Sequence record: OM386658.1
Direction: 5' to 3' (one strand)
DNA: 64,000 nt
Source: Escherichia phage vB_EcoM_ESCO32
Below are positions 458 through 63,865 of the stretch, in pieces. Position numbers and translations under genes: made by a program. Every line of letters starts with the position of its first letter. Position 1 is the stretch's first letter. Below the pieces are notes generated by a model. It was not told the DNA's origin. It saw nothing but the letters and a program-made list of their open reading frames with translations, and did no database searches.

Positions 458-480
458 AGGGGGCTTTGTCCCCCCTTTCT
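458..480 (+). terminator. rho-independent terminator-like hairpin after nrdA
   Basis: GGGGG-cttTgt-CCCCC stem-loop followed by T-rich run; approx coordinates. Confidence 0.45.
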
Positions 481-491
481 TAAGGAGGAAT

Positions 492-827: not shown

Positions 828-1899
828 CTTATACAACGACACTTACAAAGAAGGTTTCTACCCTGTATTTTTGGGAGAACAGTTAGGTATTTTTGATTCT
901 ATTAATGTAACATACCCAGAAATGCATCGTCTGTACAAACTACAAAAACAGCAAGATTGGGATGAAAACGAAGTAAACTTAGATCAGACACGAAAAGATT
1001 TCGTAGCTTGTTCTAAAAGCAACTATGATGTTATGATCAAAAACCTATCTTTCCAATGGGAAAATGATTCACTTGCTAAATCAATCATCACTTTGTTTGC
1101 ACCATTTTTAAGCAACAACGAAGCATGTGCAATGATGATGAAGCAATCAGAAATGGAAGTTTTACACGCTTTGACATATTCTGAAATTATTCGTCAGTGT
1201 ATCCCTAATCCAAATGAAGTTATCGATCAGATTATGGAGAACGAAAGAATCTTCCAGAGGATGGGTATAGTTGAAGAGATAATGAGTGATCTGGCAGAGG
1301 CAGGACATAAATATGCTCTAGGTCTGATTGAGAAGGATGATAACCTTCGTCTACTGATTCTGAAAGGAATGATTGCACTTATCGGTCTGGAAGGTATTCA
1401 GTTCATCTCCTCTTTTGCTGCAACATTTGCCTTAGCAGAGCAGCAATTGTTTGTAGGTGCAGCTAAACTCATTCAAAAAATTATGTTGGATGAACTATTG
1501 CACGTTAAAATGGATTATGCTATTATTGATGCACTGCTGAAAGATCCTGTCTGGAGAAAAGTATACGAAGATAATATCGACGTTCTGACAGAAATTCTTG
1601 ACACAGTAGTTGGACAAGAGGAAGATTGGTGTGACTATCTGTTTAGTGAAGGAAGGATTATCGTTGGCGGTAACGCAGAGTTGTTCAAACTTTGGGTTTA
1701 CTTCAATGCCGCGCCTATCTATCGCAGACTGAAAATGAAACACAAATTCCGTGCACCTAAGAAAAGTCCACTGCCTTGGATGGATGTTTGGTTAAATCCA
1801 GATCAAATTCAAGCAGCAGCACAAGAGATCCAAATTACAGCTTACAAACTGAATTCAGCAAATAAAGATGTAAGTGATGACGAGGAGTTAGACTTTTAA
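814..1899 (+). CDS. nrdB: class Ia ribonucleotide reductase small subunit (R2)
   Basis: 361 aa; motif EGIQFISSFAATFALAEQQLF...DELLH matches R2 di-iron site pattern; acidic C-terminal tail DDEELDF; GGAGG SD before ATG. Confidence 0.9.
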   Translation: MAAINLYNDTYKEGFYPVFLGEQLGIFDSINVTYPEMHRLYKLQKQQDWDENEVNLDQTRKDFVACSKSNYDVMIKNLSFQWENDSLAKSIITLFAPFLSNNEACAMMMKQSEMEVLHALTYSEIIRQCIPNPNEVIDQIMENERIFQRMGIVEEIMSDLAEAGHKYALGLIEKDDNLRLLILKGMIALIGLEGIQFISSFAATFALAEQQLFVGAAKLIQKIMLDELLHVKMDYAIIDALLKDPVWRKVYEDNIDVLTEILDTVVGQEEDWCDYLFSEGRIIVGGNAELFKLWVYFNAAPIYRRLKMKHKFRAPKKSPLPWMDVWLNPDQIQAAAQEIQITAYKLNSANKDVSDDEELDF

Positions 1900-3962: not shown

Positions 3963-4832
3963 ATGAAAGGTATTATCTTAGCAGGTGGTAGTGGAACAAG
4001 ACTTTACCCAGTTACTAAAGGGGTTAGTAAACAACTATTACCAATTTATGATAAGCCTATGATTTATTATCCGCTCTCTGTCCTAATGCTTTCTGGAATT
4101 AGGGAAATACTAATAATTACAACACCAGAAGATCAAATTAATTTTGTAAATCTTCTAGGTGATGGTTCTTCTTTTGGTATTTCCCTACAGTATGCAATAC
4201 AGGATAGCCCAAAAGGTTTAGCAGAAGCGTTTATTATTGGTGAGAACTTTATTGGTGAAGATTCTGTAGCACTTGTGCTAGGTGATAATTTATTCTTTGG
4301 TCAGAGTTTTGGTAGCATTTTAGATTCTGCTAAAGAACATATTGAAAAGAATGGTGGAGCTAATATTTTTGGGTATCACGTAAATGATCCTGAAAGATTT
4401 GGTGTTGTTGAGTTTGATTCTGAAGGTACAGTGGTGAGTATTGAAGAAAAACCAAAAGCACCAAAAAGCAACTACGCAATCACAGGCTTGTACTTTTACG
4501 ATAATTCTGTTATACAGAAAGCTAAGAGCGTTAAACCTTCTGCTAGAGGGGAGTTAGAGATTACAGATATAAATGAGATGTACTGGAAAGAAAAGACTTT
4601 ACGTGTCTGTAAACTAGGAAGAGGTTTCACTTGGCTGGATACAGGAACACATGAAAGTCTTATGGAAGCATCTCAATTTGTTCATGCAATAGAAAAGCAA
4701 CAAGGTATGAAGGTTGCATGCCTGGAAGAGATTGCTTTTAAAAATGAATGGATTACTTTAGACTCTGTAAAAAGTTCTGGAGAGGTTTTAAGTAAAACAG
4801 ACTACGGTAAGTATTTACTTAAATTAAAATAA
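3963..4832 (+). CDS. rmlA: glucose-1-phosphate thymidylyltransferase
   Basis: 289 aa; N-terminus [18 protein letters not shown]...[17 protein letters not shown] is the RmlA signature. Confidence 0.9.
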
Positions 4833-4844
4833 AGGGGGAATTAA

Positions 4845-5399
4845 ATGATTCAAGCAACAAAAATCGAAGATTTGTTGATCATTCAACCTGACGTTTACGG
4901 AGATGAACGTGGCTTTTTCTTAGAAAGTTTTAATCAGGCTTTATATGATCAATACATAGGTAAACAAAACTTTGTCCAAGATAACCATTCACGTTCTATT
5001 CGAGGAGTTCTACGTGGGCTTCATTTTCAAAAGAAAAACCCACAAGGGAAGTTAGTACGTTGTGTTCGTGGTGAAGTTTATGATGTTGCTGTAGATATTA
5101 GGGTTGGTAGTCCAACATTTGGAGAATGGGTAGGTGTTCTCTTATCTGAAAAGAATAAAACACAATTTTGGATTCCTCCTGGTTTCGCTCATGGCTTTGT
5201 TGTGATTAGTGACATTGCTGATTTTGAATATAAATGTACAGAATATTACGATCCGACTTCAGAGTGTAGTCTTGCGTGGAATGATCCAGATATCAATATT
5301 GATTGGGGTTTTGATTTAATCTTTAATGATATTAATTTTAAACCTATCTTGTCACAAAAAGATCAGGAAGCCAAAACACTAAAGGAGATCATATTTTGA
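4845..5399 (+). CDS. rmlC: dTDP-4-dehydrorhamnose 3,5-epimerase
   Basis: 184 aa cupin-type; RGFFLESF and RGLHFQ motifs typical of RmlC. Confidence 0.9.
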   Translation: MIQATKIEDLLIIQPDVYGDERGFFLESFNQALYDQYIGKQNFVQDNHSRSIRGVLRGLHFQKKNPQGKLVRCVRGEVYDVAVDIRVGSPTFGEWVGVLLSEKNKTQFWIPPGFAHGFVVISDIADFEYKCTEYYDPTSECSLAWNDPDINIDWGFDLIFNDINFKPILSQKDQEAKTLKEIIF

Positions 5400-6226
5400 C
5401 AAAATTTTTAATCTTTGGTTCAAAAGGTCAATTAGGACAATCTTTGGCAAAAGTTGCACCAGAAGATGTTATTTTGATTGAAGCAAGTGATATAGACATT
5501 ACCAACTTTAAAGATGTTATGAATAGTCTTGTACAGCACGTGCCTGATGTTGTTGTGAATTGTGCGGCTTACACGGCAGTAGATAAAGCTGAAGAAGATG
5601 TTAACACCTGTATAAATGTTAATGCATACGGTGCAACAAACATTGCCAAAGCATGTAATGATTTACTGATACAGTTTGTACATATTTCAACAGACTATGT
5701 TTTTGATGGGCATGTTGCTGGCACAGAAGATAGTAAAACAAACCCCTTGAACACCTACGGTTACAGTAAACAATTAGGTGAAACTTTAGTACAAACAGTT
5801 TGTCCTACAGCACTTACTATCAGAACAGCTTCTGTTTATAGTGAATTTGGACATAACTTTTTGAAAACTATGTTGGAACGCTACAACGGTGGTCAAAAAG
5901 AATTTAATGTAGTATGTGATCATTTGTCGTGTCCTACTTATGCACCTGATCTTGCAGAAACAATTTTTAAACTTGTAAAAGATGGTGTAAATAGTAAAAT
6001 TGTACACTATGCAGGTGCAGATTATATTTCTTGGTATGATTTTGCACGAAAGATATTTCTTGTTATAGATTTATCTGTTACAGTTAATCCTGTATCTGCT
6101 TCAACCTATAATTCCAAAGCAGTCAGACCAGCAACATCTTATTTAAAAACAGATCCTACTTTAAATCCGCGAAGTGTTGATAGCGGTATTGTAAGAACTT
6201 TAACTATACTTTTAAACAAGGAGTGA
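5396..6226 (+). CDS. rmlD: dTDP-4-dehydrorhamnose reductase
   Basis: 276 aa; TTG start overlapping rmlC stop, AAGGAG upstream; FGSKGQLGQ Rossmann motif, STDYVFDG motif as in RmlD. Confidence 0.85.
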   Translation: MTKFLIFGSKGQLGQSLAKVAPEDVILIEASDIDITNFKDVMNSLVQHVPDVVVNCAAYTAVDKAEEDVNTCINVNAYGATNIAKACNDLLIQFVHISTDYVFDGHVAGTEDSKTNPLNTYGYSKQLGETLVQTVCPTALTIRTASVYSEFGHNFLKTMLERYNGGQKEFNVVCDHLSCPTYAPDLAETIFKLVKDGVNSKIVHYAGADYISWYDFARKIFLVIDLSVTVNPVSASTYNSKAVRPATSYLKTDPTLNPRSVDSGIVRTLTILLNKE

Positions 6227-42519: not shown

Positions 42520-42882
42520 TTATTCGTAAATTTTACCGCTTTCCACCCATACCATAACACGGCGCATGTTATCCCATGCATCTTGTCGCAGATTTAAGGC
42601 ATGCAATTCTTCCGTGGTGCTCATACCTGGAACGGGCTTATTATACGTTACAAAGAGATCGCCAGCATATTCATAAGCCAGGGTAAGATCACATTGAATC
42701 ATCTTTTTAATCATAGCATCAAGCATCATATTAGCGGCATGTTGATCACGTTTTAACGGTAATGTCGCGATCTGTGTGCGATAGCTTTCGATCCGTGCAT
42801 CCACTGCATCACGCGAAAGATTTTTCACGTCATCGCGGAAAGATACCAGGTTTAACATGATAGTATTGATTTGCTTGCTCAT
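42520..42882 (-). CDS. hypothetical protein
   Basis: Track ORF. Confidence 0.6.
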   Translation of the reverse strand: MSKQINTIMLNLVSFRDDVKNLSRDAVDARIESYRTQIATLPLKRDQHAANMMLDAMIKKMIQCDLTLAYEYAGDLFVTYNKPVPGMSTTEELHALNLRQDAWDNMRRVMVWVESGKIYE

Positions 42883-42904
42883 TGTGTTACCCTTTCTTTG
42901 ATTT

Positions 42905-42964
42905 GGCGGGAAACCATTTCCCGCCCTATGTGGTATATATTACTAAATTATTTTTCAGTGTCAA
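42905..42964 (-). promoter_or_regulatory. PeSL-like cassette
   Basis: TTGACA - 16 nt - TAATAT then GGCGGGAAA-cca-TTTCCCGCC hairpin. Confidence 0.55.
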
Positions 42965-42967
42965 GCC

Positions 42968-43240
42968 TTAAAGCAAAAATGCTACATCTTGCGCTTTTAG
43001 TGTAGTGTCGATCATTTTCGGGCTTTTATAATCAACAAAGCGCGCGGTTTTTTCAATAGCGAAACCTAAATAATCTTGCTTATTGAAATTACATTCTTTT
43101 TTAAATGTTTCCCGTGCCACGGTGATCGCTGCATCCAGGGATAAACGCCCATCAATATTAATATTAGCGAAAGATCCGCCACCGCGCATAGGTTTACCAG
43201 TGATACCCATTACGATCATTGATGCGCTATATGATGCCAT
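42968..43240 (-). CDS. hypothetical protein
   Basis: Track ORF. Confidence 0.55.
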   Translation of the reverse strand: MASYSASMIVMGITGKPMRGGGSFANINIDGRLSLDAAITVARETFKKECNFNKQDYLGFAIEKTARFVDYKSPKMIDTTLKAQDVAFLL

Positions 43241-43254
43241 GATTATTTCTCTCT

Positions 43255-43310
43255 TCTGTTATGAGCGGCACTATTGCCGCCCTATGTGATACATCTTATC
43301 AGATTAAAAA
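43255..43310 (-). promoter_or_regulatory. PeSL-like cassette
   Basis: TTGATA - 16 nt - TAAGAT then GCGGCA-ctat-TGCCGC hairpin. Confidence 0.5.
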
Positions 43311-43328
43311 ACGTTATCAAGAATATTT

Positions 43329-43424
43329 TTAAAAAATAATAACCGCTACTACAACCCAAAATGGAACGGCGAGAATGATAGCGTTAATCGTTCCAACCGC
43401 CAAGCTGTTTTCTTTCTTGATCAT
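43329..43424 (-). CDS. small hydrophobic peptide, 31 aa
   Basis: MIKKENSLAVGTINAIILAVPFWVVVAVIIF; weak SD; approx. Confidence 0.3.
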   Translation of the reverse strand: MIKKENSLAVGTINAIILAVPFWVVVAVIIF

Positions 43425-43692
43425 CGTTATCAACCTTTTATAAGTAATGTTATTGTGACGGTGGATTGTGGAGATCCTCACCTTTGCCCGTCCTGCATTG
43501 CGCCCTCCTTTTGTTTATTGTCGTTGTGCCTCGCCCCCCTCGACAAGATGAATAATACGCTACCAGGTGAGGAACGTCAACCCCTTTTTTAATCTTTTTT
43601 TCATTTCTTTTTTGCTTGCTATCTATAAAGGAAAGGGGCTATTATCTTTCTACCGCGCCAACCAGGGCGCACATCAAAGAAAGGGCGATACC

Positions 43693-44772: not shown

Positions 44773-45324
44773 TCAGGAAATATCAGATTGTGCTTTTAGA
44801 TAAACAGCAAGGTCTGTATGCCATTTTCCTAAAAGATTTTGTCCTTTCCAACAGTCCTTATTTTCCACATCACGATCCCACATCCCCATTTTGATACCAT
44901 AAATAGAATCATAAGGGCTTGCCTCTACGAACTCCTTATCGGCGTAAGCAATAAGTTTATTTTTGAGATCTTCATTTTGTGTGTATTTAAGATACAAACC
45001 ACGCTTGACAATCTTCTCTCGTAAAGAAGTCCAGGTATCTTCATCATAATCTTTAACTAATCTGCCTAGTCGCTTATAATATGCTTGTTCTTTTTCTCCT
45101 GTATATCTTAGACCTCCGGTTAAAATAGAAGATGCAATGTTGTAATCATAAAATAAACATGCTTTTCTCCACATCATATATTGTTCCACACAAGTAAATT
45201 CAACAGAACTTGTAATAGAATTATTATACTTGGGAGCTAAAGGTTCAATAAAAGATGATAGATACCAGTTGCTAAATTCATCTTTTGCCGAGAAGAAGAA
45301 CACATACTTATCAGTAATCCGCAT
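44773..45324 (-). CDS. NADAR-domain protein (YbiA/DUF1768-like)
   Basis: 183 aa; FSNWY...VEQYMMWRKACLF...GQNLLGKWHTDL resemble YbiA/NADAR motifs FSNF...SEHYFQAQKF...N.LG; AAGGAGG SD. Confidence 0.55.
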   Translation of the reverse strand: MRITDKYVFFFSAKDEFSNWYLSSFIEPLAPKYNNSITSSVEFTCVEQYMMWRKACLFYDYNIASSILTGGLRYTGEKEQAYYKRLGRLVKDYDEDTWTSLREKIVKRGLYLKYTQNEDLKNKLIAYADKEFVEASPYDSIYGIKMGMWDRDVENKDCWKGQNLLGKWHTDLAVYLKAQSDIS

Positions 45325-46503
45325 TTACACCTCCTTACTGTATACTAACTTGCCACCATGTTGTGTAATAATTTTTTGAAGATTTTCCAAATCAGAAGCA
45401 CTTACTGTTTCTGTATGACCATCTTTCAACTCTCTTGCTGTTAAAATACCAGTTTTTAGTTTTTTCTTTATAGCTCTTTCAGCAGCCTTACACTGTTTCA
45501 CTGTACTAAAATCATATAAACAAATACGCTCCATAAAAAACATATTATGCCTATTTTGATTGTTTAATCGCCTGTCACTATCTTTAGCTATGCCAAACTT
45601 AAGAGCAACTATAATATCATTATCTTTAACAATATTAATATATAATTGCTGTTGACTATGACCTGCACATTGTGGACAACCTTGACCGTGGCTTAATAAG
45701 TTATTAACACGCCCTATCTGCTCCCCATGCACAAGACAAAGATATTTAAACTTACCTGTAGAAGATGGTTTGGTAATCCAATCTACCCAGACATACCCTT
45801 TCCCTTCTACTTCCTTTTTTACCCTATAGGTGATCTGGTCTTCTGTATACTGATAGTTCCCACAACGACACGGAATGTACCCTTGTTTAAGGCGATTTCC
45901 TTTAGAGTAAAATTTACCATCACAAACACCTGCTTGAACATATTCATCATGAGAGCAAACAGGACATTCAACCATCCAGGTAATATGCCTACATCCTTTA
46001 CCCCGTGTTCCTGTGTTAGTGAAGATAGTGCCTTCCTTAAATTTCCCTGTAGAAAAGAAACCTGCAATATGTTGATCGTCGGACATTGTTTGTTTCTCCC
46101 TCCTACATTGTGGACAACCTCGACCGACTTTAAATTGATCAATTGCTGTACTTTGCCATCTATTCCCACAATGGCACAACAAATCAAGTTTTGTGTAACA
46201 CCCTTTCCATTCTCCAACGTACCCTAATACTTGATACTCCTTCTTCTGTGCTATCTCTTCCAAGATCGGTAATTCTGCTTCCCATGTTAACGGCTTATTC
46301 CTTGCACATGTCGGACAACCACGTCCATTCTTAAAATCATTAATGCTCGTGGTGTTCCATTCTCCATGATCAGAGCAAGATAGCTTAAGTTTAGTCTTGT
46401 TCCCTTTCCATTCTCCCGTCCATCCTAAGATTTGGATTTGCTTACTCTCTGCTATTGGTTGACACTCTTCTTTATATTGTTCCCATGATTTTGGTGCTAC
46501 CAT
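45325..46503 (-). CDS. putative nuclease: triplicated Zn-ribbon repeats plus C-terminal GIY-YIG-like (T5orf172-type) domain
   Basis: 392 aa; three repeats of G(W/Y)xGEWKG..TKLxLxC...GRGCPxC; C-terminal LYINIVKDNDIIVALKFGIAKDSDRRL resembles the T5orf172 pattern. Confidence 0.5.
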   Translation of the reverse strand: MVAPKSWEQYKEECQPIAESKQIQILGWTGEWKGNKTKLKLSCSDHGEWNTTSINDFKNGRGCPTCARNKPLTWEAELPILEEIAQKKEYQVLGYVGEWKGCYTKLDLLCHCGNRWQSTAIDQFKVGRGCPQCRREKQTMSDDQHIAGFFSTGKFKEGTIFTNTGTRGKGCRHITWMVECPVCSHDEYVQAGVCDGKFYSKGNRLKQGYIPCRCGNYQYTEDQITYRVKKEVEGKGYVWVDWITKPSSTGKFKYLCLVHGEQIGRVNNLLSHGQGCPQCAGHSQQQLYINIVKDNDIIVALKFGIAKDSDRRLNNQNRHNMFFMERICLYDFSTVKQCKAAERAIKKKLKTGILTARELKDGHTETVSASDLENLQKIITQHGGKLVYSKEV

Positions 46504-46540: not shown

Positions 46541-46566
46541 AAAACCCGCCGGAGCGGGTTTTTATT
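46541..46566. terminator. bidirectional rho-independent terminator
   Basis: AACCCGC-cgga-GCGGGTT hairpin flanked by A and T runs, downstream of gene 46578..47705. Confidence 0.6.
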
Positions 46567-46577: not shown

Positions 46578-47705
46578 TTAAAACACGCTTGCCAAAGTTG
46601 CACCATTGGTGATAGTTGGTTCCAGAACAATACGGAAAGAATCTTCTGGATCATCACTAAACACAACGATTTTACCACCTGTAATAAGATCTGCTTTCAT
46701 TTTTGTCGCATTCAATGGAATTCGAGCATCGCCTTCATCATCAAAAACCACGTAAGAGCTATTAGCAAGGGCTTCTTTAGAGTCTGCATCACTTGGAGAT
46801 GACAAGTACACGTCTAGTGTGCACGAGCCACCTAAAAAGATTGCAGGTGTAAAGTTATGCCAACTAGATACCCAGCTAACTTTCTGAAGTTTTCCATTAA
46901 TAACAACGCTACTGATATCCCATTTATTACCCCCACCCAAAGAAACGCCCATCATAGAGATACATTCTTTAAAGGATAAATCAGGGTAGAAATTAAGTTC
47001 TTCTACTATACCTTGGATCACATCAAAGGACAACTCTAAACTTACATCCCAAAGTCTTTGGAAATTATCAAAGTGTGCTTTGTTATCCAGGTTTTTATCT
47101 AAATAGTCAATCATAGTTTCTAGTGAGATTTTATCATAATTAAAATTATAAAACACACGACTAGGACGATTTAAAAAGAATTCAGAGATAAAACCACTGT
47201 TTTTAGTCAGAATAAACAGTTTATTACCACTGCCAGTACCATCTAACAAAGTGAGAAGTGCTTCTTGATCTTGTTTCTTCTCATACACTTTATCAAACTC
47301 GTCAAAAATAATCACTGCTTTGTCGGTGATCTTGCTAATAAGTTCAATGAAATTAGCATCACTGTAGGCTTGAGTAACCATAATAGTAGGAATACCTTCT
47401 TCTACAAGGTCACGACTAATGAGTTTGGCTAACATAGTTTTACCACTACCCTTAGTTCCTGTCAGAAGCAATCCTGTATTTTTACCTTGTGCACTCCGGC
47501 GATGGAATGTACGGATAACGTGATTTGCTCGTTTTTCTGTTTCACCATACAGAACATCCGGTACACCTGTCAGATTACCACGGCTTAAAAAATAATTGCC
47601 AAGGGGATCACGACTAACAGTATAGAATCCAGGTGGAAGATAGTTAGATTCCACGCCCATATCTTTATTTACACTTACAATATCACCATAAATCGTGTAT
47701 TTCAT
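46578..47705 (-). CDS. P-loop (AAA-like) ATPase, paralogue of 62467..63627
   Basis: 375 aa; Walker A GTKGSGKT, Walker B IIFDEFD; collinear similarity to the 62467..63627 product. Confidence 0.65.
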   Translation of the reverse strand: MKYTIYGDIVSVNKDMGVESNYLPPGFYTVSRDPLGNYFLSRGNLTGVPDVLYGETEKRANHVIRTFHRRSAQGKNTGLLLTGTKGSGKTMLAKLISRDLVEEGIPTIMVTQAYSDANFIELISKITDKAVIIFDEFDKVYEKKQDQEALLTLLDGTGSGNKLFILTKNSGFISEFFLNRPSRVFYNFNYDKISLETMIDYLDKNLDNKAHFDNFQRLWDVSLELSFDVIQGIVEELNFYPDLSFKECISMMGVSLGGGNKWDISSVVINGKLQKVSWVSSWHNFTPAIFLGGSCTLDVYLSSPSDADSKEALANSSYVVFDDEGDARIPLNATKMKADLITGGKIVVFSDDPEDSFRIVLEPTITNGATLASVF

Positions 47706-48614: not shown

Positions 48615-48952
48615 TATAAAACTCCGTACTCTGGTTCAATATTATGCTTACGACAAATGGCATCCCAACGCTCATTACCAAAACTTCTTCCATGTAGTGC
48701 ATCGTATGCGAAATGTTCTGCCAACCACATTACTACACCATCTGGTTCAGTGTCAAGCGGAATTCGAAACTCTCGATCATAACGCATACGGAGAACAAAC
48801 TCATTACCGTCTTCCAGCAGGTGCATATGACTTTTAGCTCGTGATGCCAAATCGAAGAAAGGAGGTTCATCGTTCCAAACGTGACGCTCAACTTCAACAC
48901 CATGATCAACTACCAAAGTGGCAATTACTTCTCTCATTTCTTTACTAAACAT
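48614..48952 (-). CDS. hypothetical protein
   Basis: Track ORF; AGGAGGG SD. Confidence 0.55.
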   Translation of the reverse strand: MFSKEMREVIATLVVDHGVEVERHVWNDEPPFFDLASRAKSHMHLLEDGNEFVLRMRYDREFRIPLDTEPDGVVMWLAEHFAYDALHGRSFGNERWDAICRKHNIEPEYGVL

Positions 48953-49050
48953 ATTAAAGCCCTCCTAATTTAATAGTCCACTCAACACCTGTTAGATAAC
49001 TTCTTTACACAAGTATACTAAGAACATATAAGTGATTTTACCAGATATGT

Positions 49051-49404
49051 TTAGCTCCACAAATTATGGAAATACTTAGCAAACAAAATACGACCTTCTA
49101 AACGCTTTTGCCGTTGTTTTTCATTAACTTCTTCAGGTGGAGTTGAATCCTTAAAAGAGGACTCCATTTTTTCAAGAATTTCTAACCAGTGTTCTGCTGC
49201 TCGTTCTTCCATATAAGGTAGATAGTCACCTTTAGCGTGTGGGTACATCCGACGAAGTAACCCGCTAGGAATTTTAACATTGTTTGTGGCTATCACTTTT
49301 GCACGATATGCAGAAAGTGCGTTGTAGATCAGTTTACTTAGTGTCACATCCAGATCAAGAAGATCACTCTCTTCAAATTGAATTTTATCGTGTACAATTT
49401 TCAT
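49051..49404 (-). CDS. hypothetical protein
   Basis: Track ORF; AAGGAG SD. Confidence 0.55.
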   Translation of the reverse strand: MKIVHDKIQFEESDLLDLDVTLSKLIYNALSAYRAKVIATNNVKIPSGLLRRMYPHAKGDYLPYMEERAAEHWLEILEKMESSFKDSTPPEEVNEKQRQKRLEGRILFAKYFHNLWS

Positions 49405-49415
49405 ATCACTCTCCT

Positions 49416-49706
49416 TTATAGTAAAACACGTTTTGCACTGCTTGGTGCATTGTCGAACATGTTTATCACTTTGTCAAGTTTGTGTATTAACTCGTTCGTA
49501 ATGTTCCACTCTTTGTATGATCTCCATTGTTTCTTATTCTCACCTACCTGGTGTAAAACTTTGATTGGTGCATTCAAACGTACATTGCGTTCTTTGTCCT
49601 CTTCAAAAGAGGCTAACCATTTTTCGTTATGCCCATGAACAGCAATAATAATGCCAAAACCATCAAAAGTTTCTGTAATATTCTTAGTTGCTAGTGTGAT
49701 GTTCAT
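49416..49706 (-). CDS. hypothetical protein
   Basis: Track ORF; AGAGG SD. Confidence 0.55.
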   Translation of the reverse strand: MNITLATKNITETFDGFGIIIAVHGHNEKWLASFEEDKERNVRLNAPIKVLHQVGENKKQWRSYKEWNITNELIHKLDKVINMFDNAPSSAKRVLL

Positions 49707-49765
49707 ATCTAACCTCTTTTGTTACGATACCCACAGAGTACCAGAAACTAATTTCAAATCAAGTA

Positions 49766-49793
49766 TTGACATACATTTTTATTTTGTTAAGAT
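49766..49793 (+). promoter_or_regulatory. sigma70-like promoter at strand switch
   Basis: TTGACA - 16 nt - TAAGAT, about 30 nt before gene 49825. Confidence 0.45.
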
Positions 49794-49824
49794 TAGCGCA
49801 TACCAAATGAAAGGAGAAAAACAA

Positions 49825-50004
49825 ATGCAAAACATCGAACTAACTTCTATCGAAGCTAAAGAAGCAATGAAGGAAGATAGACGTGTTGAACATAACCGTT
49901 TTTGCGGTGGTGAGTGGTTTGAGATGGAATTCAGATCGGAAGTTTGGCAAGGGAGTGATGGGGCTGTAATCAAAAAGGAAAGAAGAAATGATCTACAAAA
50001 ATAA
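49825..50004 (+). CDS. hypothetical protein, 59 aa
   Basis: Track ORF 49651..50004 trimmed to ATG after AAAGGAG. Confidence 0.5.
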   Translation: MQNIELTSIEAKEAMKEDRRVEHNRFCGGEWFEMEFRSEVWQGSDGAVIKKERRNDLQK

Positions 50005-50140
50005 GTTCACTGGCTGTCTGCGTAAATTTATTGACAAAAAAGGGTATGTTTCTGTTGACAATGGTGTTACGTGGGTGCAAAATGGCACTTCAGAACAACT
50101 GGTCAAGGCTTTACCTTACTACGAGGAGTTTACAAAATGA
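49988..50140 (+). CDS. small protein, 50 aa
   Basis: ORF below threshold; AAAGGAAAG SD; ATGA overlap with next gene. Confidence 0.35.
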   Translation: MIYKNKFTGCLRKFIDKKGYVSVDNGVTWVQNGTSEQLVKALPYYEEFTK

Positions 50141-52131: not shown

Positions 52132-52600
52132 CATATGGGGTAGAATGGGTGAAGACCATGACTACTATTGCTTGAAAAGTAACGTTGAACAGGCAGATGT
52201 TGATCAAATTATAAAGCACTACCTGAAAACATGGCGTGAGGTGGAGTTTAGAGAGTTCGCTATCCTCCATAGTCAAGAAGGAGAAAAGGAGATAGACATG
52301 AGTACACTAACTAAAGCAGTACAAACGCATAAGGAATACGAGGAAGCAGTTAAAGACGAAGTGAACCCTACTTCACTGACGTTCGAAAACCTTACTCCTT
52401 TATTTTGGTCATATGATGGTAATGAAATTTTTACACATGATACACCAGAGGCTGTTAAAAATTGGGAAGGCTGTTGTAATTCCTATGAGGTATTATATGT
52501 CGTAGAAGAAGATGATACGTACATTATGTTCCGCATAGATAACGGTTGTGGTGATCAGTGGGATATTGTTCTTTCTAAACATTTGCAATTGGGTGGTTAA
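52118..52600 (+). CDS. hypothetical protein
   Basis: Track ORF. Confidence 0.55.
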   Translation: MTMYSIWGRMGEDHDYYCLKSNVEQADVDQIIKHYLKTWREVEFREFAILHSQEGEKEIDMSTLTKAVQTHKEYEEAVKDEVNPTSLTFENLTPLFWSYDGNEIFTHDTPEAVKNWEGCCNSYEVLYVVEEDDTYIMFRIDNGCGDQWDIVLSKHLQLGG

Positions 52601-52601
52601 A

Positions 52602-52964
52602 ATGCTAAAGTACCTGATGATCACTTGGTTATGTTTACTTTCATTTGCGGGACATGCAACAGAGGGTTTTAAACTTGGTGCTGACGGTACTAAATTCTTT
52701 ACATATTGGGGTGGGAAAGCCTTATACCAAGAAGAAAAGAATAGCATAGAGTGTACGGTTAGTAAGAAGATTAAATCAGTAGATCAATATGGGGATGCCT
52801 ATACTGGTGTAGGTTTTAACTGTGGAAAAGATTTATTTCTATTTGTTAAGAAGTATTTAGATGTTAACCTTGTATTGCTTATTGTTGTAGATCCTGCTAA
52901 GTTTGAAGAGCGTAAAGCATATCGTGCAGATATGTTCCTAGAATATGATGATAAGGAGAAATAA
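52602..52964 (+). CDS. predicted secreted protein (signal peptide)
   Basis: Track ORF 52548..52964 trimmed to ATG 52602; MLKYLMITWLCLLSFAGHA-TEG signal-peptide-like N-terminus. Confidence 0.5.
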   Translation: MLKYLMITWLCLLSFAGHATEGFKLGADGTKFFTYWGGKALYQEEKNSIECTVSKKIKSVDQYGDAYTGVGFNCGKDLFLFVKKYLDVNLVLLIVVDPAKFEERKAYRADMFLEYDDKEK

Positions 52965-53315
52965 ATGCTTGATGTAATTATTAATGGTGTTAAATATATT
53001 CCTTATGTAGAGAAAAGCAATCCTGATGCCTTGGATGTTATGTTTGAGGATTCAGATCTTGGTACTGTCACTGTACGGGAATATTTCCGACAACTACTCT
53101 CTACGTTATGGAGAGAAGAAGAGTGTTTTAATGGTAAACGTCCATTTGGTAACTCATGCTGGCAATTTGATATGATCCGCGCCTTAATTGAGGCAGGGTA
53201 TATTGAAGGTACAGTTGTGTACGATGAAGATGGATATCCAGAAGAGACTGACTACGACAGCAAAGAAGCTAATAAATTTATACAGGGCTTGATTGCACAG
53301 ATGTGTTTGGGTTAA
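52965..53315 (+). CDS. hypothetical protein
   Basis: Track ORF; AAGGAG SD. Confidence 0.55.
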   Translation: MLDVIINGVKYIPYVEKSNPDALDVMFEDSDLGTVTVREYFRQLLSTLWREEECFNGKRPFGNSCWQFDMIRALIEAGYIEGTVVYDEDGYPEETDYDSKEANKFIQGLIAQMCLG

Positions 53316-53316
53316 T

Positions 53317-53703
53317 ATGAAAGTATTAAATTTTTACCACTTAGGTAAAGTAATACCTGAAGGTGCAGTTTACATTGGCAGAGCTATGCCTCATATGGGG
53401 TTAAAAGCCTCAAAGTTTGCAAATCCTTTTAAGTTAAAGGATGATGAACCACGAGGGTCAACTATACAAAGATATAAAGAGTGGTTGTGGGAACAAATTC
53501 GTTGTGGTAAAATCACTCTTGAGGATTTGTTAGAATTAGAAGGGAAAGACTTAGTTTGCTTCTGCGCACCTCAACCTTGTCATGGTGATGTGTTGGTAGC
53601 AGCGGTTGCTTGGGCTAGAACAGAGTGGGATAAAAGGCATCCTACTTACACAGATGATTATTGGATTTGGGAGGATATTTATGAAGACTACACAAGAAAT
53701 TAA
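53317..53703 (+). CDS. DUF4326-like protein
   Basis: Track ORF trimmed to ATG 53317; YIGRAMP...FANPF...CFCAPQPCHGDVL motif pattern recalled for DUF4326. Confidence 0.45.
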   Translation: MKVLNFYHLGKVIPEGAVYIGRAMPHMGLKASKFANPFKLKDDEPRGSTIQRYKEWLWEQIRCGKITLEDLLELEGKDLVCFCAPQPCHGDVLVAAVAWARTEWDKRHPTYTDDYWIWEDIYEDYTRN

Positions 53704-60137: not shown

Positions 60138-60166
60138 AAAGCCAGCTTAATGCTGGCTTTTATTTT
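60138..60166 (+). terminator. rho-independent terminator
   Basis: GCCAGC-ttaat-GCTGGC hairpin plus TTTTATTTT. Confidence 0.55.
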
Positions 60167-60179
60167 CCACGGAGGATTA

Positions 60180-61979
60180 ATGACCCAAAAACTATATGAG
60201 GATGTAATCGGATTCCTCGAACAAACATCCGAAGAATTTACTCGTGAAAATGCAAACAAACCTGCAATGATTGTTAATACTCACCGAGACTTACTAGCAG
60301 GTATCCTAAGCAAGCACATGGCAATGACCCATATTTTACCGGAAGATCTGGCAGAATGGCATAAGAGTGGGTATGGTCACATTCACGATTTAGATTATTT
60401 ACTCTCACCTCTAACTAATTGTTGCCTGGTAAATTACCAAGATATGCTTGAGAACGGTTTCCGTATTGGTAATGCGCATATTGAAAAACCAAAATCTATT
60501 GGCGTAGCAACTACTGTCCTAACTCAAATTATTCAAGCAGTAGCTTCTAGCCAATATGGTGGACAAACTTGTGCACATGTTGATACTGGGCTTAGTCAAT
60601 ACGTTAAAGCAAGTTTTAATAAAATATATGCCGATGTTGGCGATTATGATATTGCTATGCGTATGGTAGATAAACAGGTCTATGATGCAATGCAAACTTT
60701 AATCTACCAGGTGAACACTCTAATGAGTGTAAATGGTCAGTCACCTTTTATAACAATTAGTTTAGGTTTGGATACCTCTGCTTTTGGTAGAATGATCACT
60801 AAAAACTACCTAATGGTGCACAAACAAGGATTGGGAAAAGATAGGGTAACTCCTGTGTTTCCTAAAGTTATCTTCTTCTTGGAAGATGGTGTTAACATGA
60901 AAGCTGGCGATCCAAATTATGATTTGAAGCAACTGGCAATGGAGTGTTGTGCTGAACGCATTTATCCTGATTTTATCTCTGTACCTTTAAACAAAGAAGT
61001 TACAGGATCTTCAGATGGTCGCGTTACAAGCATGGGTTGCCGTAGCTTCTTGTCATACTATGCAACAGAGCAAGGTGAAAAATATGATGGTCGTTTCAAC
61101 TTAGGCGTAGTTTCTTTAAACTTACCTATCATTGCAGCAGAGTCCCGTGAAAAGGGCATCTTATTTACTGAACTGTTGGAACAACATATGGAGATGGCGT
61201 ATAAGGCACATATGCTACGTGTTAACCGTATTAGACATACCAAAGCATCTCAAAACCCTACATTGTTTATGGAAGGGGCTTTAGCTCGACTAGAAGCTAA
61301 TGAAGAGATTGGTAAACTATTCGAAGGTGGTTATGCCTCTATTAGTATCGGTTATGTAGGTTTAGCAGAAGCTATGGAGATTTTATACCCAGGTAACACC
61401 AATCCAAAAGCAATGGGTAAAAACATCCTTCAATATATGAAGGATATCTGTGGCACATTTAAAGAACGTTCTGGTTTAGCTTTTAGTTTGTATGGAACAC
61501 CAGCAGAATCCTTGTGCTATAAATTTGCCAAAGCATTAAATGATCGCTATCCTGGTTCTATTGATCGTGACTACTTGACAAACTCTTTCCATCAACCTGT
61601 GTGGATGCACACTACCCCGTTCCAAAAGTGGGATTATGAGGAAGGTTTTGCACAAATCAGTAATGGTGGGAACATAGGTTATGTAGAAACACCAAACCTT
61701 AAAAATAACTTGCAAGCACTGGAAACTCTTGTAGATTATGCCTACAACAAAATTCCTTATTTTGGCGTGAACCAACCTGTAGATCAGTGTTTCAAATGTG
61801 GTTTTCATGGTGAATTTAAGGCAACAGCTAAAGGCTTCGAGTGTCCAAGTTGTGGCAATCATGAGGAAGAATCTATATCTGTAATCAGAAGAGTGTCAGG
61901 ATATCTTTCTGCCCCTAACTCTCGCCCTTATAATAAAGGTAAAATGCAAGAGGTATTAGAAAGGGAGAAACATTTTTGA
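60180..61979 (+). CDS. nrdD: anaerobic ribonucleoside-triphosphate reductase (class III)
   Basis: Track ORF trimmed to ATG 60180 after GGAGG; about 599 aa; C-terminal Cys cluster CFKCGFHG...CPSCG and glycyl-radical-type RRVSGYL motif. Confidence 0.85.
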   Translation: MTQKLYEDVIGFLEQTSEEFTRENANKPAMIVNTHRDLLAGILSKHMAMTHILPEDLAEWHKSGYGHIHDLDYLLSPLTNCCLVNYQDMLENGFRIGNAHIEKPKSIGVATTVLTQIIQAVASSQYGGQTCAHVDTGLSQYVKASFNKIYADVGDYDIAMRMVDKQVYDAMQTLIYQVNTLMSVNGQSPFITISLGLDTSAFGRMITKNYLMVHKQGLGKDRVTPVFPKVIFFLEDGVNMKAGDPNYDLKQLAMECCAERIYPDFISVPLNKEVTGSSDGRVTSMGCRSFLSYYATEQGEKYDGRFNLGVVSLNLPIIAAESREKGILFTELLEQHMEMAYKAHMLRVNRIRHTKASQNPTLFMEGALARLEANEEIGKLFEGGYASISIGYVGLAEAMEILYPGNTNPKAMGKNILQYMKDICGTFKERSGLAFSLYGTPAESLCYKFAKALNDRYPGSIDRDYLTNSFHQPVWMHTTPFQKWDYEEGFAQISNGGNIGYVETPNLKNNLQALETLVDYAYNKIPYFGVNQPVDQCFKCGFHGEFKATAKGFECPSCGNHEEESISVIRRVSGYLSAPNSRPYNKGKMQEVLEREKHF

Positions 61980-62446
61980 ATTACGCCGGATATGAACCTG
62001 TTGACATGCTCAACGGTGACGGTGTAAGATGCTCTTTGTGGGTGAGCGGTTGTAGCCACGGTTGCCGTGGCTGCTTTAACCAGAAAGCCTGGTCGTATAA
62101 CTACGGACAAGAGTTCACTACTGAAACATTAGATCTTATCTTGAAAGATTTATCTCGACCTTTCATTAAAGGATTAACAGTTTTAGGTGGTGAACCTCTT
62201 GACAAAGAGAACATTGACACTGTAGCGTATGTTCTTGAGAAGGTAAGAGATTGTTTTGGAAACAAAAAAGATATTGTCTTATACACAGGATATCTTTTTG
62301 AAGAAATTCCAGAGAAAATTAAAAAACTGGTTGACATAGTGATAGATGGTAAGTATGATATGAATCAACCAACAACGAAACGTTATAGAGGCTCAGATAA
62401 TCAACGAATGTGGGTTAAGAAAGACAACATTTGGGAATCTGACTAA
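61976..62446 (+). CDS. nrdG: anaerobic RNR activating protein (radical SAM)
   Basis: 156 aa; TTG start overlapping nrdD stop; N-terminus NYAGYEPVDMLNGDGVRCSLWVSGCSHGCRGC parallels T4 NrdG MNYHQYYPVDIVNGPGTRCTLFVSGC...C..C. Confidence 0.85.
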   Translation: MNYAGYEPVDMLNGDGVRCSLWVSGCSHGCRGCFNQKAWSYNYGQEFTTETLDLILKDLSRPFIKGLTVLGGEPLDKENIDTVAYVLEKVRDCFGNKKDIVLYTGYLFEEIPEKIKKLVDIVIDGKYDMNQPTTKRYRGSDNQRMWVKKDNIWESD

Positions 62447-62466
62447 ATTAAATAGAGGAGAAAACT

Positions 62467-63627
62467 ATGTTTACAGTATTCGGCAATCAAATCTTCCTGC
62501 GTCAGAAATCTGGTACAGATATTGAAGAAATTCCAGCAGGAACTTTTGGTGTAGGTGTTACTCAAAGTGGTGAGTTCTTCCTGTATCCTAAAAACGATAT
62601 GGAAGTGCCTTCAGTAACATACGGTGATACTGATGATAAATCAGAACGTATTATCAAAACGTTCCTTAGCCGCAAAGGTAAAAACACAGGTGTTCTCCTT
62701 GAGGGTACGAAAGGTAGCGGTAAAACTTTGCAAGCTAAAATGCTGTCTTCTGCTCTTCGTGAAATGGGTATTCCTACTATTTCTATCGGCAGTGCTTTTA
62801 ATGGCGAAGGTTTTATCAATTTTATGTCTAAAATCACACAACCTGTGATGATTATGATCGATGAATTTGATAAACTGTATGCTGAAAAAGATGCACAAGA
62901 TGGTTTGCTTACCCTGTTGGATGGTGTTGGTGGCTACGACAAACTGTTTGTATTGACTAAAAATGATGGTTATGTATCAGAATTTTTGCGTAATCGTCCT
63001 AGCCGTATTTTCTACAGTTTTAGCTATAAGAAACTACCTAAAGCTACTATGGATGATTATCTGGCTAAAAATCTGGAGAACAAAGCCTTCTTACCAGATT
63101 TTGAAACGCTTTATAATCTCTCCGTGGATTTGAACTTTGATATTGTTCAGTCATTAGTAGAAGAACTTAACCGTTACCCTAATGACAAATTCTCTGATGC
63201 ACTTGCATTGATGGGTATCAGTATTACTGAACACCGCTATGCTGCAAAAGAGGTTAAACTTCTGAAAGTTAACGGTGTAGATCGTACAGGAGATGTTTCG
63301 TCAGATACCGATATTGACGGTATGACAGCACAAGGTTTGTTTAGCGGTAATCGTTATGTTGTAGCTGTAGACCATAAACTAGGTGAAGAGCATCTTCCTG
63401 AAATGGAAGGGATTGTTACCGTAGAAGATAAAGATGAAGAAGGTGACTACTACTGGGGTGTAGACCGTATCTTGCTAACGTATGATGAAAAACACATTCG
63501 TACAATGGGTGGTGACGGTTATCACTTTATGTTCACCGATGATAAAGGTAACAACATTGAAGTTGTTATTAAAAACAAAGAACGTAAAAACTACACAGAG
63601 TATGTGTTTGGTGGTCGTTCTTACTAA
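62467..63627 (+). CDS. P-loop (AAA-like) ATPase, paralogue of 46578..47705
   Basis: 386 aa; Walker A GTKGSGKT, Walker B IMIDEFD; AGGAG SD. Confidence 0.7.
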   Translation: MFTVFGNQIFLRQKSGTDIEEIPAGTFGVGVTQSGEFFLYPKNDMEVPSVTYGDTDDKSERIIKTFLSRKGKNTGVLLEGTKGSGKTLQAKMLSSALREMGIPTISIGSAFNGEGFINFMSKITQPVMIMIDEFDKLYAEKDAQDGLLTLLDGVGGYDKLFVLTKNDGYVSEFLRNRPSRIFYSFSYKKLPKATMDDYLAKNLENKAFLPDFETLYNLSVDLNFDIVQSLVEELNRYPNDKFSDALALMGISITEHRYAAKEVKLLKVNGVDRTGDVSSDTDIDGMTAQGLFSGNRYVVAVDHKLGEEHLPEMEGIVTVEDKDEEGDYYWGVDRILLTYDEKHIRTMGGDGYHFMFTDDKGNNIEVVIKNKERKNYTEYVFGGRSY

Positions 63628-63633
63628 GTGATA

Positions 63634-63660
63634 AAAGGAGGCGAAAGCCTCCTTTATTTA
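63634..63660 (+). terminator. rho-independent terminator
   Basis: GGAGGC-GAAA-GCCTCC hairpin plus TTTATTT. Confidence 0.6.
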
Positions 63661-63673
63661 TATGGAGGGTATT

Positions 63674-63865
63674 ATGGATCATTATTTTGTTTTTAAAGAT
63701 AAAGTTGATACCGCAGGTGGTCACGTTGCTAAAAATGATCGTGACATTAAAGAAGTATTAGGAGATCTGATTAACATTTTAGAACAAAAAGAGTTGCTTT
63801 TAGATAAGGATATTGCTAGACTTCTGGGTGTGGGGATAAGTGACATACAAAGATTACCATTCTAA
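63674..63865 (+). CDS. hypothetical protein
   Basis: Track ORF 63662..63865 trimmed to ATG after GGAGGG. Confidence 0.5.
   Translation: MDHYFVFKDKVDTAGGHVAKNDRDIKEVLGDLINILEQKELLLDKDIARLLGVGISDIQRLPF

What the first reader, a model, noticed from the sequence alone, without database searches (positions are those of the whole stretch)
62467..63627. Two divergent copies of a P-loop ATPase on opposite strands
The products of 46578..47705 (minus) and 62467..63627 (plus) are collinear paralogues: both have GTKGSGKT, (I/M)IDEFDK, LLTLLDG, LTKN and NRPSR(V/I)FY segments, then diverge in the C-terminal third. One lies after nrdG, the other beside the nuclease/NADAR pair. I could not assign them to a named T4 gene product.
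Basis: seen in the sequence. Interest (0 to 1): 0.45.

Follow-up and report, generated by a model that had tools for sequence, protein, structure and literature searches.

The report
Two paralogous phage AAA ATPase genes
A phi92-like coliphage carries two intact, diverged copies of a widespread phage ATPase that looks like a ring-shaped protein-remodelling motor; both genes are already annotated as 'ATPase' in public genomes and no target is known.

Summary
62467..63627(+) (copy A, 386 aa) and 46578..47705(-) (copy B, 375 aa) are intact ORFs, 47% identical over about 254 aa (E 2e-81). Pairwise similarity is lost in the last 120-130 aa.

The window is not T4-like. It is a Justusliebigvirus (phi92-like, Stephanstirmvirinae); copy A is 100% identical to phage muut.

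Both proteins are full-length members of PHROG 2376 ('ATPase'), a large phage family with more than 3,200 50%-identity clusters. They carry every tested sequence hallmark of the classical AAA clade: Walker A and B, LLTxxDG, sensor-1 Asn and an RP(S/G)R arginine-finger motif. MoxR, clamp-loader and FtsH-protease membership are not supported.

The C-terminal domains are still homologous through intermediate sequences, but they evolve about 3-4 times faster than the rest and have no PDB analogue. Both copies are under strong purifying selection.

Copy B is the ancestral, syntenic copy, since Phapecoctavirus has only B. Copy A is a lineage-specific extra gene, precisely absent after nrdG in phage ESCO5.

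The most likely mechanism, which is inferred, is a hexameric ATP-driven protein remodeller with the two copies specialised for different partners. The target is unknown. This is an ordinary, already annotated feature of modest interest.

The parts
62467..63627 (+). Copy A: 386-aa AAA ATPase of PHROG 2376. This is the lineage-specific extra copy, located directly after nrdG.
   Evidence: ORF. phrog_2376 E 5.8e-104 over the full length. PF00004 scores 29.4 bits against a cut-off of 21.2. 100% identical to muut gp071, annotated 'ATPase'. AF2 model has pLDDT 89.3.
62467..62631 (+). Copy A N-terminal small five-stranded beta domain (residues 1-55). It ends in the family-invariant Y52-G53.
   Evidence: Secondary structure of the AF2 model. 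Y52 is invariant in 141/141 and G53 in 137/141 distant cluster representatives. This domain is 31% identical to copy B.
62632..63231 (+). Copy A AAA alpha/beta module and lid (residues 56-255). Motifs: Walker A G80-T87 (62704..62727), pore-loop-1 F111-N-G113, Walker B D132-E133 (62860..62865), LLTLLDG 147-153, sensor-1 N166, arginine-finger motif R177-P-S-R180 (62995..63006), and lid motif F224-D225...E232-E233.
63232..63624 (+). Copy A C-terminal beta-rich domain (residues 256-386), with a short terminal helix and an aromatic C-terminus. This is the fast-evolving part.
46578..47705 (-). Copy B: 375-aa AAA ATPase of PHROG 2376. This is the ancestral copy, syntenic across Stephanstirmvirinae. 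It has the same domain order as A. Its pore-loop-1 reads Y114-S-D116, so the glycine is replaced.
   Evidence: ORF. phrog_2376 E 6.6e-108. PF00004 scores 38.9 bits. The same ATPase-endonuclease-NADAR order is seen in Phapecoctavirus ESCO5, which has only this copy. dN/dS is 0.01 against muut.
62455..62460 (+). Shine-Dalgarno-like GAGGAG, 6 nt upstream of the copy A start codon.
   Evidence: Sequence read.
62331..62359 (+). Sigma-70-like promoter match (TTGACA-17-TATGAT, 11 of 12) inside the 3' end of nrdG, about 108 nt upstream of copy A. It may be a promoter for A; function is unproven.
   Evidence: The number of such sites in the region is not above shuffles, so this is only a lead.
63634..63655 (+). 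Terminator-like 9-bp GC-rich hairpin plus a T-rich tail, 7 nt after the copy A stop codon.
46541..46562 (-). Terminator-like 9-bp hairpin, 16 nt after the copy B stop codon. It separates B from the endonuclease-like gene.

Best explanation
The two genes are functional paralogues of one phage-specific subfamily (PHROG 2376) of the classical AAA clade.

Each protein has four parts:
1. A small N-terminal beta domain.
2. A complete AAA motor.
3. A helical lid.
4. A fast-evolving beta-rich C-terminal domain that ends in a hydrophobic tail.

By analogy with every characterised classical AAA protein (Cdc48/p97, FtsH, NSF, katanin/spastin, Msp1, BCS1), each most likely assembles into a hexameric ring. 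ATP bound at a subunit interface would be hydrolysed with the help of the neighbour's arginine fingers (R177/R180). The energy would be used to pull on, unfold or disassemble a protein substrate through the central pore (aromatic F111 or Y114). The N- and C-terminal domains would choose the substrate or adaptor.

Copy B is the ancestral gene of the subfamily Stephanstirmvirinae. Copy A is an additional, old paralogue kept only in Justusliebigvirus and its Klebsiella relatives. The two have kept the motor but diverged in the recognition domains, so they probably act on different host or phage proteins during the early or middle phase of infection.

Shown here: paralogy, intactness, purifying selection, clade assignment, the gain/loss pattern, and the fold of the motor.

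Inferred, not shown: hexamer formation, protein (rather than DNA) substrate, the timing of expression, and sub-functionalisation of the two copies.
For: Paralogy and intactness.

Same family over the full length: phrog_2376 at E 1e-104 and 1e-108.

Classical AAA clade:
- PF00004 scores above its gathering cut-off for both copies.
- A profile of 59 family members against the PDB returns only classical-clade proteins in the top 60 (Cdc48/p97, VAT, NSF, NVL, Rix7, Drg1/AFG2, Pex1, Msp1). E-values go down to 3e-12. The alignments run from Walker A through LLTxxDG and sensor 1 to RPsR aligned on RPGR.
- In 141 distant cluster representatives the following are 100% conserved: GxxGxGK, DE, T164, N166 and R177-P-[GS]-R180. 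G113 of the pore loop is conserved in 128/141 and an aromatic at position 111 in 107/141.

No protease or membrane features: no HExxH, no hydrophobic segment, no IGF loop.

Selection:
- Window against Klebsiella phage KP13-26: pN 0.17 with pS 0.72-0.85 for both copies.
- Copy B against muut: dN/dS 0.01.
- The C-domain has pN 0.29-0.36, against 0.08-0.12 for the N-domain plus AAA module.

C-domains are homologous through an intermediate clade: 95.7%, 92% and 67%.

Evolutionary history:
- Records carry two places in Justusliebigvirus and KP13-26, and one place in Phapecoctavirus and all other phages.
- The single ESCO5 copy sits in the B-type locus.
- In ESCO5, nrdG is followed after 13 bp by the same 192-bp gene that follows copy A here.
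- KP13-26 has both copies intact.

Gene organisation: each gene has its own RBS and a terminator-like hairpin, and A and B share the base composition of the genome.
Against: No member of the family has been characterised. Literature searches found nothing, so the substrate and even the substrate class are inferred.

The region between Walker B and LLTLLDG, which forms pore-loop 2 in classical AAA proteins, is about 10-16 residues shorter than in Cdc48/p97.

Copy B and its clade have lost the pore-loop-1 glycine (Y-S-D), which could weaken a threading mechanism.

There are weak profile hits to clamp loaders, DnaC-like loaders and Hda.

In Staphylococcus phage 6ec and a crAss-like phage the distant homologue sits inside a replication/recombination module, next to a Holliday-junction resolvase. 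Copy A itself lies in a nucleotide-metabolism and replication gene block.

No conserved neighbour gene points to a partner.
Confidence: 0.6

Rival explanations
1. The proteins are DNA-replication or recombination accessory AAA+ factors, such as a clamp loader, helicase loader or initiator. On this reading they act on DNA or on replisome proteins rather than as general protein unfoldases.
Against: All these profile hits are far below the family cut-offs; for example Hda scores 30 bits against a cut-off of 195. The LLTxxDG and RP[GS]R motifs, with classical spacing after sensor 1, are invariant. The top 60 PDB profile hits are all classical AAA. The lid motif position has I/V and Q/K and no sensor-2 arginine. 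No DNA-binding domain was detected. In most other phages the gene context is unrelated to replication.
Confidence: 0.15
2. A and B are obligate partners that form one hetero-hexameric motor, as Pex1/Pex6, Yta10/Yta12 or Rpt1-6 do, rather than two independent machines.
For: Both copies co-occur in every Justusliebigvirus record and in KP13-26. Both keep all catalytic and arginine-finger residues. The AAA core is the best-conserved part between them at 55%. Copy B has a degenerate pore-loop glycine that copy A could complement.
Against: Almost all other phages, including the sister genus Phapecoctavirus, have a single copy, which must therefore work alone. The two genes lie 15 kb apart on opposite strands in different transcription units, each with its own terminator-like hairpin. 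No co-evolution test could be run.
Confidence: 0.15
3. The proteins are FtsH-like ATP-dependent Zn metalloproteases, as several GenBank records annotate them.
For: Annotations read 'putative ATPase or Zn metalloprotease' or 'FtsH-like protease'. The AAA module resembles those of FtsH and FtsHi.
Against: There is no HExxH or M41 peptidase domain and no transmembrane segment; the maximum 19-residue Kyte-Doolittle hydropathy is 1.0. No Pfam peptidase hit was found. The C-terminal domain is a beta domain with no PDB analogue.
Confidence: 0.02
4. One copy is a decaying or inactive duplicate, that is, a pseudogene or pseudo-enzyme.
For: Copy B lacks the pore-loop glycine. The C-terminal thirds no longer align pairwise.
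Against: Both ORFs are intact here and in relatives that are 71-75% identical. pN is much lower than pS for both, and dN/dS is 0.01 for B against muut. All ATP-binding, hydrolysis and arginine-finger residues are retained in both. The Y-S-D pore loop is shared by the whole B clade, including phages in which it is the only copy.
Confidence: 0.02

Closest known systems
Classical AAA clade ATPases (Cdc48/p97/VAT, NSF, FtsH AAA module, katanin/spastin/Vps4, Msp1, BCS1)
   Different: Sequence identity is only 15-21%. The pore-loop-2 region is shorter. The roughly 55-residue N-terminal beta domain is unique, and the roughly 130-residue C-terminal beta domain has no PDB analogue. There is a single AAA module, no protease, MIT or double-psi-barrel domain, and no membrane anchor. 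The family is encoded by phages.
PHROG 2376 'ATPase' (for example muut gp071 and gp102, phi92 gp190, ESCO5 gp153, Serratia phage BF gp545, GAP32, Agrobacterium phage Atu_ph07, Lactobacillus phage Lpa804)
   Same: Both copies are full-length members (E 1e-104 and 1e-108). The same architecture appears in BFVD models. Copy A is 100% identical to muut gp071.
   Different: Nothing differs in kind. The particular point here is that two diverged members sit in one genome; in the public phage records this is seen only in Justusliebigvirus and close Klebsiella relatives (and possibly Lactobacillus phage SAC12B, which was not examined).
Bacterial Trip13/Pch2-like ATPase of CBASS (6p8v) and mitochondrial BCS1 (6u1y)
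Clamp-loader and DnaC/Hda-type AAA+ proteins (T4 gp44, RFC, DnaC)
   Different: The motif set is classical AAA (RPGR and LLTxxDG) rather than SRC plus a sensor-2 arginine or an initiator-specific insertion. Scores are far below family thresholds.

Membership tests
Classical AAA clade (Pfam PF00004-type) | Pfam PF00004 score above the gathering cut-off | tested here: met
   A scores 29.4 bits and B 38.9 bits against a cut-off of 21.2.
Classical AAA clade (Pfam PF00004-type) | Walker A GxxGxGK[ST] and Walker B hhhhDE | tested here: met
   G80, G83, G85, K86, T87, D132 and E133 are invariant in 59 close and 141 distant members and are present in both A and B.
Classical AAA clade (Pfam PF00004-type) | Sensor-1 Asn followed by a second region of homology with two arginines (R-P-G-R type), 11 and 14 residues later | tested here: met
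   N166, R177, P178 and R180 are invariant. Position 179 is G in 132/141 distant members and S in A and B. HMMER aligns this stretch on the RPGR of p97 D2.
Classical AAA clade (Pfam PF00004-type) | Pore-loop 1 with an aromatic-x-Gly motif | tested here: inconclusive
   A has F111-N-G113. B has Y114-S-D116, so the Gly is lost. Across the family the aromatic is present in 107/141 and the Gly in 128/141.
Classical AAA clade (Pfam PF00004-type) | Nearest solved relatives are classical-clade proteins rather than other AAA+ clades | tested here: met
Classical AAA clade (Pfam PF00004-type) | Hexameric ring with ATP-dependent substrate threading | not testable with these tools
   Only monomer models could be made. 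This needs biochemistry or cryo-EM.
PHROG 2376 (phage 'ATPase') | Full-length match to the family profile | tested here: met
   A matches residues 1-376 to profile positions 2-359 of 363, E 5.8e-104. B matches residues 1-367 to positions 1-357 of 363, E 6.6e-108.
FtsH-like Zn metalloprotease | M41 peptidase domain with HExxH and N-terminal transmembrane segments | tested here: not met
   No HExxH, maximum 19-residue hydropathy 1.0, and no peptidase Pfam hit.
MoxR / AAA_5 (PF07728) | Score above the AAA_5 cut-off, and MoxR-type insertions (helix-2 insert, pre-sensor-1 hairpin) | tested here: not met
Clamp loader / DnaC / Hda AAA+ | Family-level profile score; SRC or sensor-2 arginine motifs | tested here: not met
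   Hda scores 16-30 bits against a cut-off of 195, and DnaC-like families score 17-28 bits against a cut-off of 189. The PHROG clamp-loader hits have E 1e-8 and 4e-5, compared with 1e-104 for phrog_2376. The lid position has I/V and Q/K, not Arg.
STAND NTPases (nSTAND3 PF20720, nSTAND5 PF25199) | Score above the cut-off, with STAND-type domains after the P-loop core | tested here: inconclusive
   For nSTAND3, B scores 29.3 bits (cut-off 27.2) and A scores 19 bits, below it. For nSTAND5, both are below the cut-off of 34. The matches cover only the P-loop core and are weaker than PF00004. The arginine-finger motif and lid are those of AAA proteins.
Known anti-phage defence proteins (PADLOC) | Significant match to a defence-system protein model | tested here: not met
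   Only P-loop-level hits were found, with E of 8.5e-4 or weaker.

The most novel reading that the evidence does not exclude
PHROG 2376 may be a phage-specific family of classical-AAA protein unfoldases that large lytic phages use to dismantle particular host protein complexes, for example oligomeric defence or stress-response assemblies. The variable C-terminal domain would act as the targeting module. On this reading Justusliebigvirus keeps two copies because they neutralise two different host targets, which would make them an ATP-driven counter-defence or host-takeover device of a kind not yet described for phages.
Probability: 0.12. Interest if true: 0.7.

Novelty: new member of a known kind. 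Interest (0 to 1): 0.3.

Why it matters
Classical-clade AAA motors are few in bacteria, FtsH being the main one (background knowledge). This family is nevertheless spread over thousands of sequence clusters in large lytic phages of both Gram-negative and Gram-positive hosts, and also in crAss-like phages. No member has a known function.

The pair in this genome is a natural experiment: the same motor with diverged N- and C-terminal recognition domains. It could be used to identify substrates through Walker-B trap pull-downs in a tractable E. coli K-12 phage.

The finding itself, two annotated ATPase paralogues, is ordinary. It does not change any current view.

Tried and rejected
1. T4 framing: rejected. 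The DNA is 98-100% identical to phi92-like Justusliebigvirus genomes.

2. FtsH-like protease or Zn metalloprotease annotation: rejected.

3. MoxR/AAA_5: rejected.

4. NCBIfam and PADLOC gave no family membership.

5. Search for a conserved neighbour that might be a partner: contexts in ESCO5, Serratia phage BF, Deep Blue, 6ec, cr115_1, AM2, A9, Privateer and a 154-kb metagenomic contig share no common adjacent gene. The only recurrence is a Holliday-junction resolvase next to the distant homologues in 6ec and cr115_1.

7. Fold search against AFDB50: that library was unavailable. BFVD returned only uncharacterised phage homologues, followed by giant-virus AAA proteins.

8. Literature: six full-text searches found no functional study of this family.

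9. Foreign-origin test for copy A by composition: its GC and GC3 are the same as the genome's, so this was uninformative.

10. The promoter scan is not enriched over shuffles, so the 11-of-12 site upstream of A is only a lead.

Full report
OBSERVATION

The two ORFs are real and lie exactly where stated. Copy A is 62467..63627 on the + strand (386 aa) and copy B is 46578..47705 on the - strand (375 aa). Both start with ATG and are uninterrupted.

BLASTP of A against B gives 47% identity and 70% positives over 254 collinear residues with only 2 gaps (E 2e-81). Nothing significant follows in the last 120-130 residues.

Identity by domain:
- N-terminal domain: 31%
- AAA alpha/beta domain: 55%
- Lid: 45%
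- C-terminal domain: 19%, where the local alignment score is no better than shuffles (54 of 500)

The one exception is the Walker B string, which reads IMIDEFDK in A and IIFDEFDK in B. The neighbours are as described: nrdD and nrdG lie upstream of A, and a CapR x4 + T5orf172 endonuclease-like gene and a NADAR gene lie next to B.

WHERE THE WINDOW COMES FROM

The window is not from a T4-like phage. Copy A is 100% identical at the DNA level to Escherichia phage muut and 98-99% identical to about 50 other Justusliebigvirus genomes (phi92-like, Stephanstirmvirinae). Copy B is 98-99% identical to the same set.

In those records the genes are annotated 'ATPase', 'hypothetical protein', 'putative ATPase or Zn metalloprotease' or 'FtsH-like protease'. 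The window is a mosaic relative of muut. Between the two copies there are two roughly 1-kb segments absent from muut and one inverted segment.

WHAT THE PROTEINS ARE

Both are full-length members of PHROG 2376 'ATPase' (E 5.8e-104 and 6.6e-108). Both pass the Pfam PF00004 (AAA) gathering threshold. All other P-loop families score lower.

The family is very large. A profile of 59 members finds 3,235 clusters (at 50% identity) with E of 1e-30 or better among 1.84 billion representatives. The conserved part is usually positions 2 to about 280, and the C-terminus is variable.

tblastn against the phage collection finds the family in many groups:
- Stephanstirmvirinae
- 350-370 kb jumbo phages (GAP32, Serratia phage BF, Yersinia phage fHe-Yen9)
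- 85-100 kb phages of Salmonella, Proteus and Aeromonas
- Herelleviridae
- Lactococcus 949-like phages
- Staphylococcus 6ec-like phages
- crAss-like phages

CLADE ASSIGNMENT

Against the PDB, single sequences hit only classical AAA proteins, and weakly: fidgetin-like 1, spastin, katanin, Msp1, PAN and p97 D2. With the family profile, all top 60 hits are classical-clade proteins (Cdc48/p97, VAT, NSF, NVL, Rix7, AFG2/Drg1, Pex1, Msp1), with E-values down to 3e-12. The alignments run from Walker A through Walker B and the LLTxxDG helix to sensor 1, and then to 'RPsR' aligned on 'RPGR'.

In 141 distant cluster representatives the following are invariant or nearly so:
- the Walker A glycines and lysine
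- D132 and E133
- T164 and N166
- R177-P178-[G/S]179-R180
- Y183
- the lid residues F224, D225, E232, E233 and N235

The pore-loop-1 position is aromatic in 107/141 and is followed by Gly in 128/141. Copy A has F-N-G. Copy B has Y-S-D.

Features of other candidate families are missing:
- There is no HExxH, no transmembrane segment and no ClpP-docking IGF loop.
- NCBIfam and PADLOC give only P-loop-level hits far below their thresholds.

The 'FtsH-like protease', MoxR/AAA_5 and clamp-loader labels are therefore not supported. 'Classical-clade AAA ATPase of an uncharacterised phage family' is supported.

THE DIVERGED C-TERMINAL THIRD

The C-terminal third is the same domain in both copies, not a domain swap. 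Profile-profile comparison of the C-terminal parts gives the following:
- A-clade against an intermediate clade (P0041-46, from about 154-kb phage contigs): 95.7% probability, E 1e-8
- B-clade against the intermediate clade: 92%, E 6.5e-7
- A-clade against B-clade: 67%, E 5e-5, collinear over about 100 residues

Across the family the extreme C-terminus is hydrophobic. 109 of 141 distant representatives end in F, L, V, Y, I, M or W, against a background frequency of 35%. The tail often follows the pattern [FY][DN][FY]xx[AL][FL]. In A this tail forms a short helix followed by GGRSY. I read it as a docking or packing element, but that is inference.

ARE BOTH COPIES FUNCTIONAL?

Yes, as far as sequence can tell. 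Both retain every catalytic residue.

Against Klebsiella phage KP13-26, where both copies are intact at 71% and 75% protein identity, non-synonymous differences are 0.17 per site while synonymous sites are saturated (0.72-0.85). Copy B against muut has dS 0.116 and dN 0.001. The C-terminal domains accumulate replacements 3-4 times faster than the N-domain plus AAA module, but still far below the synonymous rate.

Each gene has a good RBS and is followed within 7-16 nt by a 9-bp GC-rich hairpin. An 11-of-12 sigma-70-like site lies about 108 nt upstream of A, inside nrdG. It is a lead only, because such sites are not enriched over shuffles.

EVOLUTIONARY HISTORY

In an NJ tree the B clade includes the single copy of Phapecoctavirus phages. 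The A clade groups with the intermediate clade, and the jumbo-phage proteins fall outside both.

In Phapecoctavirus ESCO5 the only copy sits in the B-type locus, with the same ATPase-endonuclease-NADAR order. At the A-type locus in ESCO5, nrdG is followed after 13 bp by the same 192-bp gene that follows copy A here, so A is precisely absent. In KP13-26, A is present at the syntenic place but nrdD and nrdG are not, so A is not functionally tied to the nrd genes.

B is therefore the ancestral gene of the subfamily. A is an old extra paralogue, either a duplication or an acquisition from a related phage, retained in Justusliebigvirus and its Klebsiella relatives. Its base composition matches the genome.

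MECHANISM

Every characterised classical-clade AAA protein is a ring-shaped, usually hexameric, ATP-driven remodeller or unfoldase of proteins. In these, inter-subunit arginine fingers drive hydrolysis and pore-loop aromatics grip the polypeptide (established knowledge of the clade). All sequence determinants of that mechanism are conserved here.

My best explanation, at about 0.6 confidence, is that A and B are two such motors with different recognition domains. They would act on different host or phage proteins during the early or middle phase of infection. Timing is inferred from their position among early-type small genes and DNA-metabolism genes.

The main rival, at about 0.15, is a replication or recombination accessory role. 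It is suggested by weak clamp-loader and DnaC profile hits and by the replication-module context of distant homologues in 6ec and a crAss-like phage.

An obligate A/B hetero-hexamer is possible, also at about 0.15. It is not favoured, because nearly all other phages manage with one copy and because the two genes lie in separate transcription units.

The pseudogene and protease readings are effectively excluded.

NOVELTY AND INTEREST

The genes are already in public databases, annotated as ATPases and grouped in a PHROG. Paralogous accessory genes are common in large phages. Six literature searches found no functional work on the family.

The finding is therefore an ordinary, correctly observed feature. 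It is a new, duplicated member of a known kind of enzyme, from an uncharacterised but very widespread phage subfamily with an orphan C-terminal fold. I score interest at 0.3.

The most novel reading not excluded is a targeted host-complex or defence-dismantling unfoldase with an exchangeable targeting domain. I give it a probability of about 0.12. It would be considerably more interesting if shown.

Noticed in passing
window 45325..46503 (-) and 44773..45324 (-): The gene next to copy B has four CapR-homology zinc-finger repeats plus a T5orf172 (GIY-YIG-like) domain, so it looks like a homing endonuclease. The next gene is a NADAR-domain protein. The same ATPase-endonuclease-NADAR order occurs in Phapecoctavirus ESCO5, where the NADAR gene is labelled 'GTP cyclohydrolase II'.
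   Followed up: partly
window 63634..63655 (+) and 46541..46562 (-): Both ATPase genes are followed within 7-16 nt by a strong 9-bp GC-rich hairpin with a T-rich tail. Each gene therefore appears to end a transcription unit.
   Followed up: partly
window 62331..62359 (+): A near-consensus sigma-70-type promoter match (TTGACA-17-TATGAT, 11 of 12) lies inside the 3' end of nrdG, about 108 nt upstream of copy A. Promoter-like sites are not enriched in the region overall.
   Followed up: no
window 42521..43573, 48861..50123 and 52367..53432: The window is mosaic relative to phage muut. Two roughly 1-kb segments carrying small hypothetical ORFs are absent from muut. The segment 49056..49926 is inverted relative to muut. 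Copy A is 100% identical to muut, while the copy B region is only about 94-99% identical.
   Followed up: partly
last 7-12 residues of copy A (window ~63589..63624) and of copy B (window ~46581..46601); P0121-P0261: The family has a conserved hydrophobic C-terminal tail despite its variable C-terminal domain. 109 of 141 distant cluster representatives end in a hydrophobic residue (background 35%), often following the pattern [FY][DN][FY]xx[AL][FL]-COOH. This may be a docking or packing element.
   Followed up: partly
L011/L012 (Klebsiella phage KP13-26, OP617743.1, record ~144319..144419 joined to 1..1024): The copy-B orthologue runs across the origin of the circular record and is annotated only as a truncated 855-bp CDS (170..1024). 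Joined across the origin, it is intact and 75% identical to the window's copy B.
   Followed up: yes
L013 (ESCO5 NC_047776.2, record 122372..123047) compared with window 61976..63865: In Phapecoctavirus ESCO5, nrdG is followed after 13 bp by the 192-bp gene that follows copy A in the window. This is a clean presence/absence of the A gene together with its terminator.
   Followed up: yes
hits H61 and others (Campylobacter phage A110a, MG065689.1): Four records named 'Campylobacter phage' are about 146-kb genomes carrying both ATPase genes at 98-99% identity to coliphages of the genus Justusliebigvirus. The host assignment looks doubtful.
   Followed up: no
L006 (Staphylococcus phage 6ec) 4974..6922 and L007 (crAss cr115_1) 4590..5903: In two very distant phages the homologous ATPase lies directly beside a Holliday-junction resolvase within a replication/recombination module. 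This is the only recurring neighbour seen.
   Followed up: no
window 60150..61979 (+): The longest nrdD ORF in the window (609 aa, starting at 60150) begins 30 nt upstream of the start implied by the muut annotation (1800 bp). A terminator-like hairpin at 60138..60160 overlaps that upstream start, so the annotated shorter start is more plausible.
   Followed up: no
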